From Calcarisporiella thermophila CBS 279.70 (taxonomy: Eukaryota > Fungi > Calcarisporiellomycota): a DNA stretch of 64,000 nt. Each line of letters opens with the position of its first letter. Positions within the stretch are counted from its first letter, which is position 1. A model generated the notes under the pieces. That model was not told the origin of the DNA. It saw nothing but the letters and a program-made list of their open reading frames with translations, and ran no database searches. The stretch lies in assembly GCF_041956535.1 (NCBI RefSeq), contig NW_027192215.1, positions 160,789-224,788 on the forward strand, in the 5' to 3' direction. The translations under genes were made by a program, and so were the position numbers. Positions 30,585-62,729 of this stretch are shown in pieces.

Positions 30585-31355
30585 ATGCCAAAGGTCCCTA
30601 GAAATTGTATCCTTTTAGTCTTACGCCAATGATCTACTGAATTTTTTCCTGGATATATTGAAATTTGATCCAATTCTTTGTGAATTTATTTTATAACGCT
30701 TCTGCCAATATATGACATTACCTTCACTCTTGACATCATCCAGGTTCCAAGACCTACAAGGTTCCACGTCGCCCATTTGAATCTGAGCGGCTTGATCACG
30801 AGCTTAAACTTGTCGGTGAGTACGGTCTTCGCAATAAACGTGAAGTATGGCGGGTAGGTTATACTCTGTCAAAGATCCGTCGTGCGGCTCGTGAACTTCT
30901 TACACTGGAAGAAAAAGATCCTCGGCGCCTTTTTGAGGGTAATGCACTTATCCGCCGGCTAGTACGCATTGGGGTACTTGATGAATCCAAAATGAAACTC
31001 GATTATGTGCTTTCGCTGAAAATTGAAGATTTCTTGGAACGACGCCTTCAAACACAAGTGTTCAAGCTCGGGTTGGCTAAATCAATTCACCATGCTCGAG
31101 TATTGATTAGACAACGACACATCCGGTATTTTATTTTAGACGAGATGATTTCAAATATAACGTTTGTATAATAGCTCTTCCTACAATAGAGTTGGGCGTC
31201 AGATGGTAAACATCCCCAGTTTCGTAGTTCGGCTTGATTCACAAAAACACATCGACTTCGCATTAACCTCACCGTATGGTGGTGGTCGTCCCGGCCGTGT
31301 TAAACGTAAGCGTCAAAAATCTGCGTCCAACAATGCTGAAGATGATGAAGAATAG
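30585..31355 (+). CDS. RPS9: 40S ribosomal protein S9 (uS4), 3 exons
   Basis: [45 protein letters not shown]...[55 protein letters not shown]. Confidence 0.98.
30607..30743 (+). other. U12-type (minor spliceosome) GT-AG intron in RPS9
   Basis: Donor GTATCCTTTT; branch-site-like TTACCTTCAC (30718-30727) about 17 nt before the CAG; no polypyrimidine tract. Removing it restores the RPS9 frame. Confidence 0.85.
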
Positions 31356-32116: not shown

Positions 32117-32862
32117 ATGGGTGGTAAGTAGTAAGAGATCTAGTTTTATTGTATTAAGTTCTAATGTTATATTGCTTCATTCTCTCCGATTAGCGTACAA
32201 GTATCTTGAAGGCAAGTTTGACCTCTATAAATTAGTCTAGAAATGAGCGCTTAGTTTTAATAATAATAGAACTCTACAAGAAGAAGCAATCAGATGTTAT
32301 GCGCTTCTTGCTGCGTGTTCGTTGCTGGGAATATAGACAATTGAATGTTATTCATCGTGCTTCACGTCCCTCGCGTCCCGACAAAGCTCGTCGCCTCGGT
32401 TATAAAGCTAAACAGGGCTATGTTATCTATCGCATCCGCGTTCGTCGTGGTGGCCGTAAGAAGCCTGTGCCAAAAGGTCAGACTTATGGCAAACCCGTCC
32501 GTCAAGGTGTCACTCAGCTTAAATACCAAAAGTCCCTACGTGTCACCGCAGAGGAACGTGTTGGCCGCCGATGTGGAAACTTGCGTGTGCTAAATTCCTA
32601 CTGGATTAATAGTGATAGCACATATAAGTACTTTGAAGTTATTCTTGTTGATCCCAATCATAAAGCAATCCGCCGCGATCCCCGCATTAACTGGATTTGC
32701 AATCCAGTGCATAAGCACCGTGAGGCCCGTGGCCTCACCGCTATTGGGCGTAAGTCCCGCGGTATTGCAGGACGCGGCCACTTGTTCAACAACATGAAGG
32801 GAGGAGGCCGTCGTGCCAACTGGCGTCGCAACAATACTCTTTCTCTTCGCCGATATCGCTAA
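32117..32862 (+). CDS. RPL15: 60S ribosomal protein L15 (eL15); first two coding segments are 7 and 18 nt
   Basis: ATG GGT G|..|CG TAC AAG TAT CTT GAA G|gcaagt..atag|AA CTC gives [32 protein letters not shown]...SLRRYR. Confidence 0.98.
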
Positions 32863-35466: not shown

Positions 35467-36073
35467 TTTAGACTATAGAGAGAATTTTATTTATCAAATA
35501 GAAATAAAGCTATAGAGATGCCTTTTATTGTTAAGCACTTGTTTTGAAGCTAGTGTTTGGGGGCTGGCTTTTGGCGAAGCCTTGCATTTTCAAAGACAAC
35601 TTTATTGTAGAATGGCACTCATAATAATATGTGAGTTTTGTAAATTGAGCTCAACCCATTATTCATTTAAGTGAGCGTTTTCTAATCGGGTCAAATCATT
35701 CGTTAATGCAGCAATAAGATAAAAAGATACACTCCGTATTGTGCTAGAAATATGGCGAGAAAATGGTCTTCTATATTAAGCTTTTCTTGGTGTGCCCCTT
35801 CTATTTAGATATTTTTGGCTTATTTGGAAAAAGTTTTTGTAACCACGTTTCCGATTTCCAAATATTATTCAGTATATAAACAGTAGTTTGAATATTATTT
35901 TCCTCTTTTTTATTTCCCTCAATCCGTTATTCTCTAAATATATTTTCGCCTGGTAGCGATATATTTTTATCCAATACCGCAGGAACGGTCTACTTACTTT
36001 GTATACTCACCTTCTTTTCTGCCTCTACCCGCTGGTACGGTTTTATTATACCTTTCCCAGGCCTTTTTTCAAA

Positions 36074-37228
36074 ATGTCCCATCAATATTTGTTTGCAAGA
36101 ATATTCCTTCTATTTGTGTTTTTGGCACTTCTTTCTCCTCTCTCAGACGCTAAAGAGCGTGACAGTAAGAAGCAGAATAAAAAGAGCAGAAAGCATCAAG
36201 GAAAGAAAGACATTGGTGCTTTTATGGTAACTCATAATTGACTAATCTTCCTTACAATATGATATACTGATCAGTCTATCTTATTTAAGACCAATCCTCC
36301 TCCTCGCCTAGTCCCCGGAGATGATACCGATGATTTCAAGGAAGCACGCAAGCCTAACAAACGCGGAGTATGTGGGGGACTTGAGCCAAGCCAGATCAAA
36401 GCCATCTACGTTGAAGGAGGCATTATGCCAACAAACTGGGAAGTGGCTGAGAAGCTTCGCGGACCGTGCACTTTTGAGGTTTCAAAATCGGGCAAGGATT
36501 CGGGATTCCGTAAGCTCAAGATCATAAAAGAGTGTGCAGCACAGAAGGGCGAGAACAAGTTTGCACTTCGACTCCCCAAAGGTCTCGTATGCGACCATTG
36601 CGTTGTACGCTGGACATGGAAGCCTAAGAAAGGTGAATCTTATGTCAATTGTGCGGATGTTCGGATAATTAAGCGCTCCAAGGGAGTACCTGGAGATGGA
36701 AAGCACAAATTCGAAACCGACGATTTAGCTGGGCCTGAGGAAGAGCTCGACTCCGAAAAGGAACAGGGTGATAAGAATGCCCAAAACGAGAAAAAAGACG
36801 CCAAGAATGACAAAGCTGCTGAATCGGAAGATGAAGCTGTTCGCGAGCAGAAAAAGGAATCCCCCACCGCTAACGAAAAAAAAGGCATTGGCAAAGATAC
36901 CAAAACCAATAAGGATGCAAAAGAAACAGGCAAAGACGGCAAGCAGACCGAAAACGACACCACCTCTCCCGTGGTTGGAAAAACTGAGGCGGCTGAGGAG
37001 CCAGACTTTGTGGTTGAGAAGGAAACGGTTAGTCAGGCCCAAGTACAACCCGTTCCCTCGCAACCTGTCAACTCAACTGCGACCGTGCCTGAAGAACCGG
37101 CATTTACGGTTGAAAAGGATAGAGAAGGCGAAAAAGTCAAGCGTGAAGAGGACAGGACATTTAGGGGTATCGATCGAAGAAGGTTATTAAGAGGTCGGTA
37201 CATAGGCTTCAAGCGAACCCATCATTGA
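36074..37228 (+). CDS. Secreted LPMO-fold (AA11/AA15/AA16-like) protein lacking the His-brace, with charged low-complexity tail; 2 exons
   Basis: Signal peptide (..LLSPLSDA), intron 36227-36289, then GAFMTNPPPR...CGG...W...GPCTFEVS...F..L...C...LP..L.CDHCVVRWTW....ESYVNCADVRI. Confidence 0.7.
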
Positions 37229-55039: not shown

Positions 55040-58000
55040 ATGCAAAGCTGGCCTATCGATCCGCTTCACGAGCTCTGGAATGCCACAGCAGAACAATTGC
55101 AAACTATATTGCGATCAGAGAGCCAGAGCAAAAATATCAAGGCAAGAATAATCTATGATAAGCCTCGATTGAAAACATAAAAATAAGAGTATTGTACATG
55201 GAAACGTAGGTCATTGCACTTGTTCGATTAGAGAAACTTATTCGTGAACCACACATAAATTGTATTGATGTTTTGCCGGATATCCTTGCGCAGGTTTGCT
55301 TTTAAAGTTCATTCTCAAGTGTAATGGATTTATACCGAGTAATTAATGATGAACATCTATGAAACAGGTCGACTCAAAGTCAACAAAGCTTCAATGCCAG
55401 GCATTTAGGATTTTGCTCACTATATTCAGGGCAAGTTATCCCCTTGTATCCATGCGCCTATCATAGCTCCTAGGAATAATTACTCTATCATATACTTCAG
55501 ACGCGTAAAATAGCCCTTGGAGGGAAGCTGCCTGATAATTTATCTCGACTATCTGAACTTTGCTCGATAGTTACTGCCAAACTTTCCAATTCTCACCATC
55601 GAACCCGTTCTCTATGCCTGCAACTCCTAGTAGCAATACCAATGCAACTCCGGACATTAAACCAAGATCAAGAATCTATCTTCGTGACCGATGCAAAACT
55701 GCAGACAATTGTCAGCAAGTATGGTCAGGATTCAGATCCAAGAGTTAGAAAGGTTAGAATTGTTAAATTTTAGTGTTTTTCATATAACACCTCGTTTATC
55801 GTTCCCATGTATGGGTTTCTAAAGGTTGCACTGAATTCTCTTCTTTCACTGCATCTGCGTGGGTGTAACCTTGACTTATCTCTCTATCCGCTTGCTGTTT
55901 CCGCGCTTAAAGATGATTATGAGGATGTGCGGGTATCGGCCCTTGATCTTATCTGGTAAGTTTCTTACCTAGGTTAATAATAGGTCCGCTACTTTAAAAA
56001 ACAAACTTAGGGTTCTAGGAAATCTCTTCCAAGAGCACAAACTTAACGTCGAGCATGGTGGCATGAGCGAGGAGATCCGTATGGTTGACGATGTGTTCGT
56101 GAAAATTTGCGACATGGTCAACGATGGAACTGCCAAAGTACGATCAAAAGCATGCAACCTGTTGGGGACTTTCCGTCAGGTGAACATCAAGTTTCTCTCA
56201 CAGACCTTCAGCAAACAAATCATATCACATTTGCGGAGAAAAGTTCCTATGGGTCGTAGTAAGGGAGTAAGTCTTACACTTAATTTTGTGTGCTTTCTAT
56301 ATCCTAATTCCATCGGTGCTCATATGACAGTCAAAGAAGCTAATTCCAGTGGCCGAAGGAGATTTTGATGTCGAGTCCGATGAGTTTCGTCTCTTGGACT
56401 CTGGCGCTTGCGGTGCATTTGTACATGGGTTAGAAGATGAATATCAGGATGTCAGGCTCGCATCAATAGGTAAGCATCCGTGTGGTTGCATTTAGCATGT
56501 ATACTTATGAGTAAAATTTGTAGATTCAATCTGTGAGCTAAGCATGTATAACAAGGAATTTGCCATCCAATCTGTAGATTTCCTTGTTGGTAAGAAAACT
56601 CATTACTACCCTTGATGCTTCAACTCGATTAACTGGTCGTTTGGCTACAGACATGTTTAATGATGAGATCGACGAAGTTCGCTTAGATTCAATCAATAGT
56701 TTACGCAAAGTCAGCACAAAATCGCCCATCATCCTCGATACTGATCAGTTACAGATAGCGCTTGGAGTACTAGAGGATGCTAGCCGCCGCATCCGTGAGG
56801 GTGCCCACGAAATGTTGAGGTAGACCGCCATAATTCTGTTTATTCGTGTTCATGCTTATTTAAAAGAGAAAACAGAGTTTCGAATTTTGCATCAGCCGAG
56901 TGCATGCCTATTTTTATCGAAGCATTACAAGCAAATCTGGTAAGATATCCAGGCGATCAACTCTCCATTTATCGATGCCTACGTGACATTGGTGCGAGAC
57001 ATAGCGAGTTCGTTGGTAGGCTCTTGAATGCATTCCCAGTTCTACTTGGTGTATTGACATAATAATGCTTATATAATCTCCAACGCAGAACCGCTTGTTG
57101 CCAAATTATTGAAACTCGACCCGATATTTGCTCCACGTGAGCAAAACGTCGAAGACCCTACTTGTAAGTCAATTGGACACATATGTAATATACCACATAT
57201 AATGGACTTAAGCTCTCTCCACATAATCTACGGGGATAGATGTTGGGTATTTGATCTTAATACTTAACGCTGCAGAGGACAACAAGGATATACAGAGCCA
57301 GTTGCCAAAATATGTCCGTCGGCACTACACTTATTTGCGTGATAAGTTTCCCGGATGTTTCCCACCTCAACTTAGAGTAGCTCAAGCCCATCTACTTTTA
57401 TTTTTGCTAAAACATTGGCTAATGTCCCATTTTCCACTTTAAAACAGGCAGAGAGTAAAAGTGGTCTATTAATTGTGGAGGCACGGGAAACCCCAGTTAT
57501 TGAAAGTAAGAGTTACATCTTTTTTCCCGTTTGCATCTTGTAATAATGTTTTGGCTTTGGTTAGATCATGGCGACGTTGAGGATCTCTTAAAACACACGA
57601 TGGCTACAGTTTCCAAAATTGTAAAACTAGTTCAGCAACGAGAATGGAATGTAGCCAGCCGCTTCATCGCCGCTTCTAATGAGTATGTACATATTATTAA
57701 TTCTTCTAATGCTGCTATCCCATTCATAATTGTACCTTCACTAGGAATTTAAAATACATTGGGACACTCAATCCAATTCTGAGCGGAAAGGCAGAATTTG
57801 TAATCTTGTATTTGCAATGCTGCAAAATCTTAATTGAGGTGATTATCGTTTTTGTTGTAGTACGGAAGGATGGTTTATAGATTTTGTTTACGCACCAGGC
57901 AAAATCAAGGAGAGAACAATTTCGGTTTGGACGTAGTTCACTGGAGACGGCATCACAACTTCTGCGCATTTCATACAGCATGGAGCATTCATTTCTAGGA

Positions 58001-59126
58001 TTACCCCGCCAAGCAAGAAGTCTGATTGACCATTTCAAGCTGGTGGCACATATTCTTTGGGTATTCGGCTCGATATTAGAAAACAAAGGGTGAGCGCATA
58101 TTCGGTCGATTAAGCTGCTTTTTAATGGACTCTCATGCCATTCTTTCTCTTCTATGTATCAAAGGCTAACTAATGGCGAAAAAAGTCTTTTGGATTCTCT
58201 TCAGACTCTACAAGACCGAATCAACGATATCAACAAGTAAGGAGTTAATTGACACGACCCCCTACTCCCTCTCCATTCACACCTATCATTTACACGATAT
58301 CTAATAGAAAGTCTCGCGATACCGGCGTGGGTTGTGAGAAAATTACACGTCTAGGAGATCATTTGTCCACATGCATGCAAGTGGAGAACAATGCGATAAA
58401 GCTTGCAAAATCGTCGGAATTGCTCTTTGCTTATGTGCTGGTAATACTAATGCTAGCAGATGGCATTGCATTGAAGATAAACCTGTATTGCTTGACTTAG
58501 GACTATATCCCGGGTGAACTCGATATCGACAACTTGCTCAAGAAGACTCGGGGCACACTCATTAGTCCAAAATCGAATCCAGACAAACCTGTGGAATTTG
58601 TGTCTGCCTTTTCTCTGCGTGCCCAGATTGAGGCCGAGATCCAGCACATTACAAGCATACGATCAATCGCAATCAAGGTAATTCTGAGCTTGCGTTGCTG
58701 CAATGCTATTGCTACCGAATGTGACTGAACGCCTTTTATTCAAAGGCCACTTTCCTTGACCAATCAACCCGCCTCTACTGGCCTCCTGTGTCCCACTTTT
58801 GTCCCACCACACCCTACCATTATACCCTGGAAACCTCGATTGAGATTGAGCAGGCCGCATGGACAGGTGAGCGGCGGATCTATTTTTGTGTGCCGATGGC
58901 CTCTTCGCCCTAGCATTAACTAATGAACAACCTCACGTATATATTAGATAAATGCTATGTTACGCTCGAGCTAGTCTATGTCTTTGAGCCTGAGGAATTG
59001 GACCAAGCCGCCATCGATGATATCCTTGCTTATCCACACAAACCTTCATGCACCTCCCCAACCACAGTACCGATCGGCGATCCCGTACAGTTCTATATAC
59101 TACCGCGGCGCCTCAATCCTGGATAA
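55040..59126 (+). CDS. INTS4: Integrator complex subunit 4 (HEAT-repeat), ~19 exons, two GC-AG introns
   Basis: DSDPRVRK, ALKDDYEDVR..AL.LIW, RMVDDVFVKICDMVNDG..KVRSKAC, LLDSGACGAFVHGLEDEYQDVR, AIQSVDFLVDMFNDEIDEVRL, RHYTYLRDKFP match the INTS4 motif order. Confidence 0.9.
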
Positions 59127-59833: not shown

Positions 59834-62729
59834 TTAATTCGCTAGTATTTGATCTTCTGGAGTAGGTAGCCGCTGAGCTCGCTTTTCTATTTCTAAATAC
59901 TCTAGCACTTCAGATGCAGTGGGACGTGTATTAGGGTCATCACTGAGCATACGATCTCCAATTTCGCCTATAAAAATTAAATTCGAAATAACGGAGAAAA
60001 AAATAGAATATAGAAAAATGATATAATACTCACCGAGTTTCGAGAGTAGATTTAATGCTTGAAGAGTTCTGCCAGCACTGTATATATCAGCTGGGAATCC
60101 ATGAGGCTCGTGTCGTTCAACTTCGGGTGCAATAAAAGTCTCGGTTCCAGCACCACTTTGCGTTTGCTTATCTTGGATTTCCTCAGCAAAATTGAAATCA
60201 AGTAAAACCCAGCTATCGAAGAAGAAAAATAGACGGATTAGGATAAAACGATTGTGTTGAAAACTGTTAAATTACCGCTTCTGCCTCTCACTATATCCGA
60301 TATTATTTGGTTTGATATCATGATGAATAATACCGCGAGTGTGTAGGGCCTTCAATGCAGAAAACAAGTCTCTCATAAAGCCTTCTCCAGTAAGCTTGAA
60401 CAAAAATAATAAACAAAAAAAGATTAATAGCAGGAAAAAGCGTAAAATTAAAAGTCAGTACCTTGAGAAAATCTCTGCCGTAAACCTCCACTTTATCTAA
60501 GATCATGCCATAACAACCATTAAGCAATAAAGTATTGTAAAGCCGCACAATGTTTGGTAAATCCTAAAAAGCATATCAGTGTAGTGATGCGAAGGGCTGA
60601 AATAAAAGGCATCAAATACCTGAAGTTTTTGAAGTAAAGAAATTTCATGCCCTTTTCCAAGCTTAGCTACAAATGCGAATGACTGCTCTTTATGAACTAC
60701 ATGGAACACGCGTGTATGATCACTCTTTTGTGAAATAGGTATTTGATTATTAAGATTTATCTTATGTTACCACAGGATAAAAAAGCTAAACCTTACCTTG
60801 TGTATAGTACCGAAATATTGGTAACCACATTTTTGTATAAGAGATAACATAGATATAGATATATCAGTTATAGATTGGTGATCACTTCCCCTGTCACAAG
60901 TTTCCGATTCCTCTCTTCTTTTATCACCTCTTGTATCTTTTCCTTTCTTCGATGGAGTAAATTTCGAACCTCCAGGACGGGATTCCAACTGTATTTGGGG
61001 AGGAGGAAAGCGATCTCCTACCAAATATTCATGAGTTAAGTCATAGCCTGTCCAGTAAAAACTGCAAATATAAAATTTTGAATACCCATTGTTATTGGAC
61101 CTCGTTTATGCATAAGTTTTTGTACTGTGACCATTGCTTCTCTGACAGGCCCAAGAAGGAAGCTACTGATCTTGACAATATGATCTATGTTGACTGAATG
61201 TACATAATTGGCTAGAATTCCCTCTAACAATTGCTCGAAGAGACAGAAGTTAAAGTGTGACCCATTCATTCCCTTGCGCTCTCGTATTGGTTTCATCCCA
61301 ACAAATTCAAACTCGCCATCCGAGGAGAGCAGAAGACCATACGTTCTGAGTTCTTCAATAGCACCATCAGGGACTCTTTTTGCCATCTTCTCTAGCGAAT
61401 GACGCAGCAACTTTGCCATTTTTCGAGTGTCTTTATGGGCAGATATCGAATCTTCACTCGCTGTCTCAACTTCCACAATCAATACCGGAATTTTTGTTCC
61501 TGCTATATGCACCCCACAAACAAAATCAACTATAGGAGCCCAATTTTCAGTCACCGGAAATCTGAACTCTCTCTGTGAAAAAAAATTTGGAATATTTGCT
61601 TCGTGAAGCGGTGTTCCAATGAGAGGTTCAAGAACTAAGCCGCCGAAATCCTGCTCTACCGTTGCATTACTTCTTGCAAGTGCTTTAATTCCCACCGTAA
61701 CTAAAAGCGGAGAAACAAATTCGGTAGGGCGATTGTGTGTTTGTATGCACCGTCTCCAATTATCTGCAGTTGCTATAGGGTCTGTATTTTGGATATTGAG
61801 TGCTTCATGTCTTTCATTGTCAGGAAGATCCTAAAAATGGAATGGCATGAGATATATAAACTGTATATGGCCTAAAAGCTTAGGTTGATTTTATGAATTT
61901 ACCTGGAAATATTCTTCAAAAGCGACCAATATTTCTTCCTTTTCTTTGCCCCATATGAGCCATTGGAATATGTGGCAGCAATCGAGACCAAGAATTTTGA
62001 AATCTTTTGCAAAAGAAAGTTGGCTAGAATTCTGTGCGCAGAAATCCTCCACAACTGTCTTCAGGTTAGAATCGCAAATACAATTCGAAGGCCAACGTAC
62101 TAAAAAACTCTGACGGAAAATGTTTTCTGCTGCCATTGTCAAAGTTGCCTTGAAATATCTAATAGAAAGTTTAAAAATTCAACGGTAAATGCATTAGTTG
62201 CTGAATCTTTCCCTACTGTTGTTCAAGTTTGTCCTTGGTAGTTTTGCGTGCGTGAGGATAATGCCACCCAGCGATGTGCCGAACATAGTCTTGCCACAGT
62301 TTCCCATCATTAAAAGGTGCTATATATTATGGGTATGGAATTATTTTAGAAAGAACCCATTGGCAATGTAAATAACATTTACGCGCTAAAACATTTATAT
62401 CTGAGTAATATCTTTCATCCAACTCAGGGAGACGAAAAGTTTGATTTCGAGATCGAGTCGGCGTCATTATTGAAGAAGGAGTAGGAGATACCGCTGATCC
62501 CATATAGGTATGTTCCTCCTGTGGTAATTGGGCAGAACATACACCAGGTGAGAGCATAGATTCATCACCTTGATCAGAAACTGGTTTCTTCGCTCTTTTC
62601 TGTCTTTGAGTGATGCCAGTCGTATTTTTCTCTAAAAATGAAATGCATATGATTTATTCGAGAAACATAAGCATCACAACATTATATACCCTTTTCCTTT
62701 TCCAATGAATGAGCTCTCTTTGGGGGCAT
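59834..62729 (-). CDS. Fusion of a PD-(D/E)xK-like restriction-endonuclease-fold domain and a Ser/Thr protein kinase (Crinkler-related REase+kinase architecture), 11 exons
   Basis: ATG at 62729 (MPPKR); ten GT-AG introns give one open frame. Nuclease-like core VEQDFGGLVLEPL...IVDFVC...VLIVEVE...HKDTRKMAKLLR...RTYGLLL. Kinase motifs FVAK, E..LL..L, NIVRL, IIHHDIKPNNI, LLDFNFA, GTETFIAPE, ADIYSAG, DPNTRPTASE. Confidence 0.8.

What the first reader, a model, noticed from the sequence alone, without database searches (positions are those of the whole stretch)
30607..30743. Minor-spliceosome (U12) intron gating ribosomal protein S9: candidate autoregulatory switch
Seen: RPS9 intron 1 starts GTATCCTTTT (perfect U12 donor), has TTACCTTCAC about 17 nt before the CAG and no pyrimidine tract, and is about twice the local intron length (137 nt). 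It is the only such intron I found among ~100. Retention gives [15 protein letters not shown] (stop 30630-30632), and a possible bulged hairpin lies at 30639-30676 (GAAT..TGGAT / ATCCAATTC). Known: the minor spliceosome is lost in Dikarya but kept in some early-diverging fungi; U12 introns are slow and can be rate-limiting; RPS9/uS4 autoregulates through splicing in yeast and animals. Inference: a slow minor intron in a very highly expressed gene could couple ribosome production to minor-spliceosome activity and be a U12-based form of uS4 feedback. I do not recall a U12 intron in RPS9 elsewhere.
Basis: partly seen in the sequence, partly recalled or inferred. Interest (0 to 1): 0.76.

Follow-up and report, generated by a model that had tools for sequence, protein, structure and literature searches.

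The report
Minor-type intron in fungal RPS9
The first intron of a ribosomal protein S9 gene in an early-branching fungus starts with the exact signal of the rare "minor" splicing machinery and is likely removed by it; this copy shows no folded switch, but the same intron in root-symbiotic fungi carries a conserved predicted RNA fold that buries the splice site and would suit S9 feedback.

Summary
The intron is real (30607-30743, phase 1). Splicing it gives a protein identical to a public Calcarisporiella thermophila uS4 model. Its donor GTATCCTTTT is the only perfect U12 donor in the window (chance 1.4e-4 per intron) and a poor U2 donor. The branch site is only fair (2 mismatches, matched by 6 of 74 ordinary introns), and a U2-type branch site lies beside it. 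I could not test minor snRNAs or RNA reads. U12 type: about 80%. The proposed hairpin folds no better than shuffles, so a switch in this copy is unsupported. [quoted passage not shown] New: the position is ancient and mostly U2 (30 of 34 loci). In two arbuscular-mycorrhizal-like loci it has a minor-like donor buried in a conserved -21 kcal/mol duplex, plus a second, internal perfect U12 donor. The scan has noted fungal U12 introns on other DNA before, none listed in RPS9.

The parts
30585..30606 (+). RPS9 (uS4) exon 1: 7 codons plus the first base of Cys8
   Evidence: spliced product identical to P0120; Pfam Ribosomal_S4 and S4
30607..30743 (+). intron 1, 137 nt, phase 1, GT-AG, likely U12-type
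30607..30616 (+). 5' splice site GTATCCTTTT, perfect U12 consensus, poor U2 donor (-3.6 bits)
30630..30632 (+). in-frame TGA if intron 1 is retained (codon 16)
30648..30654 (+). CCTGGAT, can form 7 bp with 30738-30744 across the 3' splice site; weak evidence (2.7% of 3000 shuffles, 4 of 73 other introns)
30718..30727 (+). candidate U12 branch site TTACCTTCAC, branch A 30726 (-18), 2 mismatches to consensus
   Evidence: CCTTCAC variants among U12 calls in Phycomyces
30730..30734 (+). rival branch site TTGAC (U2-type YTRAY; A 30733 at -11)
30744..31125 (+). RPS9 exon 2
31126..31189 (+). intron 2, 64 nt, ordinary U2 (GTATTT..ATAG), phase 2 in HIR|V; by its flanking bases the position of the nematode S9 intron in PMC2846911 Table 1, probably the animal 'last intron' (inferred)
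31190..31355 (+). RPS9 exon 3 to stop

Best explanation
RPS9 intron 1 of this fungus begins with a perfect U12 donor and is likely a plain GT-AG minor intron, removed by the minor spliceosome with no dedicated uS4 switch in this copy. Shown: the boundaries, the donor, the stop on retention, and the lack of structure beyond chance. Inferred from known U12 chemistry: U11 pairs with GTATCCTTT, U12 pairs with ACCTTCAC and bulges A30726, and the first AG downstream (30742-30743) is used, joining T to GT to make Cys8. Slow removal could cap output of this one of three RPS9 paralogues, and retained transcripts would be degraded, but that follows for any retained AT-rich intron and is not feedback.
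For: Perfect donor at a boundary fixed independently by the protein; 1.4e-4 per intron under the window's own U2 matrix. As a U2 donor it scores -3.6 bits, as low as 3% of 73 true donors and like decoy GTs. Phase 1 is the commonest minor phase (PMC10639083 passage). CCTTCAC and CCTTTAC branch variants, with branch-to-AG distances I counted by eye at 23-26 nt, occur among U12 calls in Phycomyces and Rhizopus; the Rhizopus S13 U12 introns are about 150 nt. The species is sister to the other Mucoromycotina, and neighbours on both sides keep minor snRNAs: Bifiguratus U11, U12, U6atac; Rhizopus; Rhizophagus with 205 minor introns. Two AM-fungus-like orthologues have the minor-like donor GTATTCTT. 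No structure; donor duplex -6.8, 145 of 300 shuffles. No internal AG after +12 and the only inner GT of usable spacing (+74) scores as a decoy.
Against: The branch site has 2 mismatches, reached by 6 of 74 ordinary introns, and lies at -18 against an optimum of 11-13 nt. A perfect U2-type branch site lies at -11. U2 donors here are degenerate (GTATT in 11 of 74). Close relatives have few true minor introns: Bifiguratus 0 minor and 45 minor-like, Rhizopus 4 and 84. The minor snRNAs and proteins of this species were not testable. Absence of a predicted fold does not exclude feedback by a small or protein-induced element.
Confidence: 0.6

Rival explanations
1. A minor-like intron now spliced by the major spliceosome: the donor is a relic or a chance drift of the common GTATTT form, and TTGAC at -11 is the branch site.
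For: Perfect YTRAY at -11; weak local U2 donors. The position is canonical U2 in 30 of 34 assigned loci. Minor-like introns outnumber true minor ones in Mucoromycotina. My estimate: about 6 chance GTATCCTTT donors in a genome of about 45,000 introns (rate; the intron number is assumed).
Against: +5 C is seen in about 3% of local U2 donors and the full donor scores in the bottom 3%. The donor stays perfect to +10 and a U12-like branch site is also present.
Confidence: 0.2
2. A U12-based uS4 feedback switch: free uS4 binds the intron and blocks minor splicing, so the retained message meets the stop at codon 16 and is degraded.
For: RPS9 feedback through splicing is known in yeast and animals and moves between introns (PMC3315480). 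The intron is twice the local length. Three paralogues allow cross-regulation. A 7-bp helix can cover the 3' splice site. The orthologous AM-fungal intron has a conserved donor-burying duplex and signs of selective retention.
Against: The window intron shows no similarity to that element (341, 265 and 638 of 1000 shuffles as good) and no fold above chance. The 7-bp helix is matched by 4 of 73 other introns and ensemble pairing at the site is ordinary (30% of shuffles). In Rhizophagus minor splicing did not rise with proliferation (PMC10639083 section 35).
Confidence: 0.2

Closest known systems
U12 GT-AG introns in ribosomal protein genes: RPS13 of Rhizopus oryzae and Phycomyces blakesleeanus, RPL31 of Phytophthora, RPL4 of Physarum (Bartschat and Samuelsson 2010, PMC2846911; passages, section 10, supplement passages)
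   Same: GT-AG minor-type intron with GTATCCTTT donor in a ribosomal protein gene of a Mucoromycota-type fungus, similar length (about 150 nt in Rhizopus); that paper already suggests a regulatory role.
   Different: Different gene and position (RPS9, near the 5' end). The branch site is weaker than the CCTTAAC of Rhizopus S13. That paper's only S9 entry is a weak Trichinella candidate at the intron-2 position that fails both of its stricter rules.
Minor introns of Rhizophagus irregularis (205) and Basidiobolus meristosporus (249 or 237) (PMC10639083, PMC11347168; passages, one section, supplement rows)
   Same: Same intron class in non-Dikarya fungi; phase 1 bias.
   Different: Calcarisporiella is not named in either paper's held supplement and RPS9 is not named in text or supplement. 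The per-intron lists held elsewhere were not visible and may include RPS9.
RPS9/uS4 splicing autoregulation in S. cerevisiae (RPS9A/B) and animals (Plocik and Guthrie 2012, PMC3315480: passages, section 9, supplement 2 part 1 of 3; PMC12350175 and PMC11734700: passages)
   Same: Same gene, a stop codon on unproductive splicing, paralogues. In AM fungi a conserved intronic structure is also seen.
   Different: Yeast: U2 intron after nt 7 with a conserved kissing-loop structure. Animals: mostly the last intron. The window's intron lies after nt 22, is U12-like, and has no detectable structure.
USSE, the U11-binding splicing enhancer of U11-48K and U11/U12-65K (PMC3584512, passages)
   Same: The AM-fungal introns hold a U12 donor motif 23 and 30 nt downstream of an internal YAG, like a U11 site acting on an upstream 3' splice site.
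   Different: Single motif, not a tandem repeat; absent from the window's intron; function untested.

Membership tests
U12-type (minor) intron | 5' splice site RTATCCTTT | tested here: met
   0 mismatches; the next best of 74 local introns has 2
U12-type (minor) intron | branch site close to TTCCTTRAC | tested here: inconclusive
   2 mismatches at -18, matched by 6 of 74 ordinary introns; the same variant occurs among Phycomyces U12 calls; intronIC not available
U12-type (minor) intron | short branch-to-3' splice site distance (optimum 11-13 nt) and no polypyrimidine tract | tested here: inconclusive
   -18, longer than the optimum but shorter than Mucorales GT-AG examples; lack of a tract does not separate intron types in this genome
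U12-type (minor) intron | U11, U12, U4atac, U6atac and minor-specific proteins present in the genome | not testable with these tools
   no whole genome held; none in the 64-kb window by Rfam, which says little; present in relatives
U12-type (minor) intron | removal depends on the minor spliceosome | not testable with these tools
   needs lariat mapping or snRNA block
U12-type (minor) intron | orthologous introns of minor type | tested here: inconclusive
   of 34 assigned donors: 0 GTATCC, 2 minor-like GTATTCTT, 1 GTATCG, 1 GTACAT, 30 canonical U2
RPS9 autoregulatory intron | unproductive splicing gives a premature stop | tested here: met
   TGA at codon 16 on retention; not specific to regulated introns
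RPS9 autoregulatory intron | conserved, stable RNA structure in the intron | tested here: not met
   window intron: z +0.63, no similarity to the AM-fungal element. Met only in L010 and L034
RPS9 autoregulatory intron | splicing falls when uS4 is in excess | not testable with these tools
   experiment needed

The most novel reading that the evidence does not exclude
RPS9 intron 1 is a minor-spliceosome-linked uS4 feedback site across Mucoromycota. In arbuscular mycorrhizal fungi a conserved multi-hairpin element buries the productive minor-like donor, and a second, perfect U12 donor inside the intron diverts the message to a stop-containing form; Calcarisporiella keeps a stripped-down U12 version. 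Because the position is U2 in most other lineages sampled, it may also be a rare major-to-minor conversion.
Probability: 0.25. Interest if true: 0.72.

Novelty: new member of a known kind. Interest (0 to 1): 0.42.

Why it matters
Alone, this adds one species and one gene to the known set of fungal minor introns. It matters more as a pointer. The same intron in AM fungi holds a conserved predicted fold over its 5' splice site that I did not find described, and it explains several wrong public N-termini. If uS4 acts there, it is a further site of RPS9 feedback and would tie ribosome supply to minor splicing. The position, U2 in most lineages sampled and U12-like in Mucoromycota, is also a clean test of the assumption that intron conversion runs only from minor to major.

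Tried and rejected
Whole genome: none held. Sequencing runs: no RNA holder listed, so no reads were laid; this is no evidence either way. Rfam: 0 hits in the window and 0 at E<=0.1 in 6 of the 71 loci, so the AM-fungal element matched no curated family. RPS9 exon-2 pattern in prokaryote genomes and viral contigs, and the element's core in prokaryote genomes: 0 each. First gene-finder runs under-called or crashed; one search was used. Alternative U2 donor at +74, which would give a 64-nt intron: rejected, decoy-level score. Donor-burying helix in the window: chance level. Homology of the window intron to the AM-fungal element: none; a short 3' match to L010 reached 67 of 2000 shuffles but failed against L034 and L071. 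The idea that this is a low-expression paralogue: codon use equals RPL15's (0.47 and 0.47, ATR 0.34), so not supported. Other U12 introns in the window, including AT-AC: 47 near-motifs listed, only 30607 perfect; none of the others sits at a modelled exon end. Back-translating read-through N-termini of Umbelopsis-like models to type their branch sites: ambiguous, not used. No covariance model was built, since two sequences are too few. No query for a minor-spliceosome protein was available from the tools, so their presence in this species stays open.

Full report
Gene and organism. The region is RPS9 (uS4; Pfam). Exon 1 is 30585-30606, intron 1 30607-30743, exon 2 30744-31125, intron 2 31126-31189 and exon 3 31190-31355. 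The spliced protein equals public model P0120. A neighbouring enzyme exon and RPS9 exon 2 both match proteins labelled Calcarisporiella thermophila at 100%. This species is reported as sister to the other Mucoromycotina (PMC10079182, passages). Three uS4 paralogues with the same N-terminus are on record. No whole genome was held.

Is the donor more than chance? RTATCCTTT occurs once on both strands of the window, at a boundary fixed by the protein. I trained a simple gene finder on the window (100 introns) and kept 74 credible ordinary ones (median 64 nt, cut at 100 nt). Their donors are degenerate (GTAAG, GTATT and GTAAT 11 each), but +5 C is about 3% and none starts GTATC. The chance of GTATCCTTT is 1.4e-4 per intron, or 0.010 in 74. 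Scored as a U2 donor the site gets -3.6 bits, as low as 3% of 73 true donors.

The 3' end is less clear. TACCTTCAC (A at -18) has 2 mismatches to TTCCTTRAC; 6 of 74 ordinary introns do as well, and a perfect U2-type TTGAC lies at -11. The review optimum is 11-13 nt (PMC3584512, passages). However, U12 calls in Phycomyces include CCTTCAC and CCTTTAC variants, and Mucorales GT-AG examples have the branch 23-26 nt from the end by my count (PMC2846911 supplement passages). Minor snRNAs are reported in Bifiguratus, Rhizopus, Rhizophagus and Basidiobolus, but true minor introns are few in Mucoromycotina (0 and 4, against 45 and 84 minor-like). Weighing these, I put U12 type at about 80% (inference).

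Is it a switch? Retention gives a stop at codon 16, as most retained AT-rich introns would. The intron folds no better than shuffles (z +0.63; with exons +0.67). The donor has no strong partner (-6.8, 145 of 300 shuffles). A 7-bp helix across the 3' splice site is the only mild oddity (2.7% of 3000 shuffles; 4 of 73 other introns; ensemble pairing ordinary). There is no AG between +12 and the end, and the inner GT at +74 scores as a decoy, so no poison exon or alternative donor is evident. Codon use matches RPL15, in line with high expression.

The intron position is ancient. A pattern for an intron end followed by the start of exon 2 found 71 metagenome loci, 47 distinct. A donor could be assigned by script in 34: 30 canonical U2 (GTAAGT, GTGAGT, GTACGT and the like), 2 GTATTCTT, 1 GTATCG, 1 GTACAT, none GTATCC and none AT-AC. 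Of the 13 unassigned, 4 end in AC and look intronless; the rest are cut short or were missed. Many loci look like diatoms or ciliates (my inference from sequence and code), lineages recalled to lack minor splicing, so U2 there does not fix the ancestral type. The pattern needs Ser or Thr at the next codon and so would miss plants (recalled). Many public fungal models break at this same residue.

The unexpected result is in L010 and L034, whose proteins are closest to Glomeromycotina. Their introns are 549 and 460 nt and start GTATTCTT, a permitted minor variant under the rule quoted in PMC2846911. They share an 86-column core (score 100, 0 of 1000 shuffles) and fold better than shuffles (z -4.18 and -2.47). 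Folded separately, both cores give the same four hairpins, one with a both-sided change seen by eye; the cores alone are only z -1.72 and -1.00. In each, intron bases +1 to about +24 form a -21 kcal/mol duplex with the core (0 of 300 shuffles each) that competes with the first hairpin. In L034 the whole-sequence fold prefers a nearer partner that also buries the donor. Both hold a perfect internal RTATCCTTT at +197 and +203 (59 and 31 of 5000 shuffles), and both, with L071, hold TGGCTTTAC 29-36 nt from the end, a possible weak U12 branch site (3 mismatches). Mis-called N-termini of Paraglomus occultum (62 of 64 residues), Rhizophagus irregularis (7 of 8) and three Funneliformis species (four models) are translations of pieces of this intron; 3 of the 12 pairings tried (P0136, P0180, P0138 against L010) gave no convincing match, and P0138 against L034 only 4 of 5. 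P0287 and P0148 are identical over 182 residues, one with the intron's 3' end in front and one spliced. L034 and L071 keep intron 1 but lack the later introns seen in L010. This fits selective retention in RNA, but molecule type is unknown and intron loss could explain it. The window's intron shows no similarity to this element. With two full sequences, covariation is anecdotal.

What is known. [quoted passage not shown] In Rhizophagus minor splicing did not increase with proliferation, which counts against growth coupling. Conversion is assumed to run from minor to major. I found no report of a U12 intron at this RPS9 position (searches; text and supplement look-ups), nor of the AM-fungal element. 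Those searches cover open-access papers only, and the per-intron databases of the two surveys were not visible.

Verdict. Likely a genuine minor intron and a new member of a known kind; the switch is unsupported in this copy. The lead worth following is the structured orthologous intron of AM fungi. Interest 0.42.

Noticed in passing
L010:639-1187 (-) and L034:755-1214 (-); fragment L071:1-56 (+): Conserved structured element in RPS9 intron 1 of AM-fungus-like loci: -21 kcal/mol duplex burying the donor, four hairpins, a possible loop-loop pairing seen by eye, an internal perfect U12 donor and a shared 3' motif; no Rfam match.
   Followed up: partly
L010 intron 1, about +102 to +173: A nested, ordinary-looking U2 intron (AG|GTAATC, CTAAC, ATAG) lies inside the long intron, 23 nt upstream of the internal U12 donor; may define a poison exon.
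   Followed up: no
P0128, P0151, P0152, P0154, P0241, P0281: Public RPS9 models of Rhizophagus, Funneliformis and Paraglomus have wrong N-termini translated from intron 1.
   Followed up: yes
window 32117-32862 (+): RPL15 follows RPS9 in tandem; its intron 2 (32212-32269) is GC-AG.
   Followed up: partly
L006 (intron 343 nt before the match): Donor GTATCG at the orthologous RPS9 position, neither canonical U2 nor U12.
   Followed up: no
window about 55040-58900 (+): Many-intron HEAT-like gene resembling Integrator subunit INTS4 (label recalled; no Pfam hit on the one exon scanned); modelled introns all look U2.
   Followed up: no
window 59834-62682 (-): Gene with a region resembling a Crinkler-type nuclease fold followed by a kinase-like end (likeness recalled; no Pfam hit on the main exon).
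   Followed up: no
window about 36070-37228 (+): Secreted-looking protein with a weak LPMO_10 match (E 3e-6) and a long charged tail.
   Followed up: no
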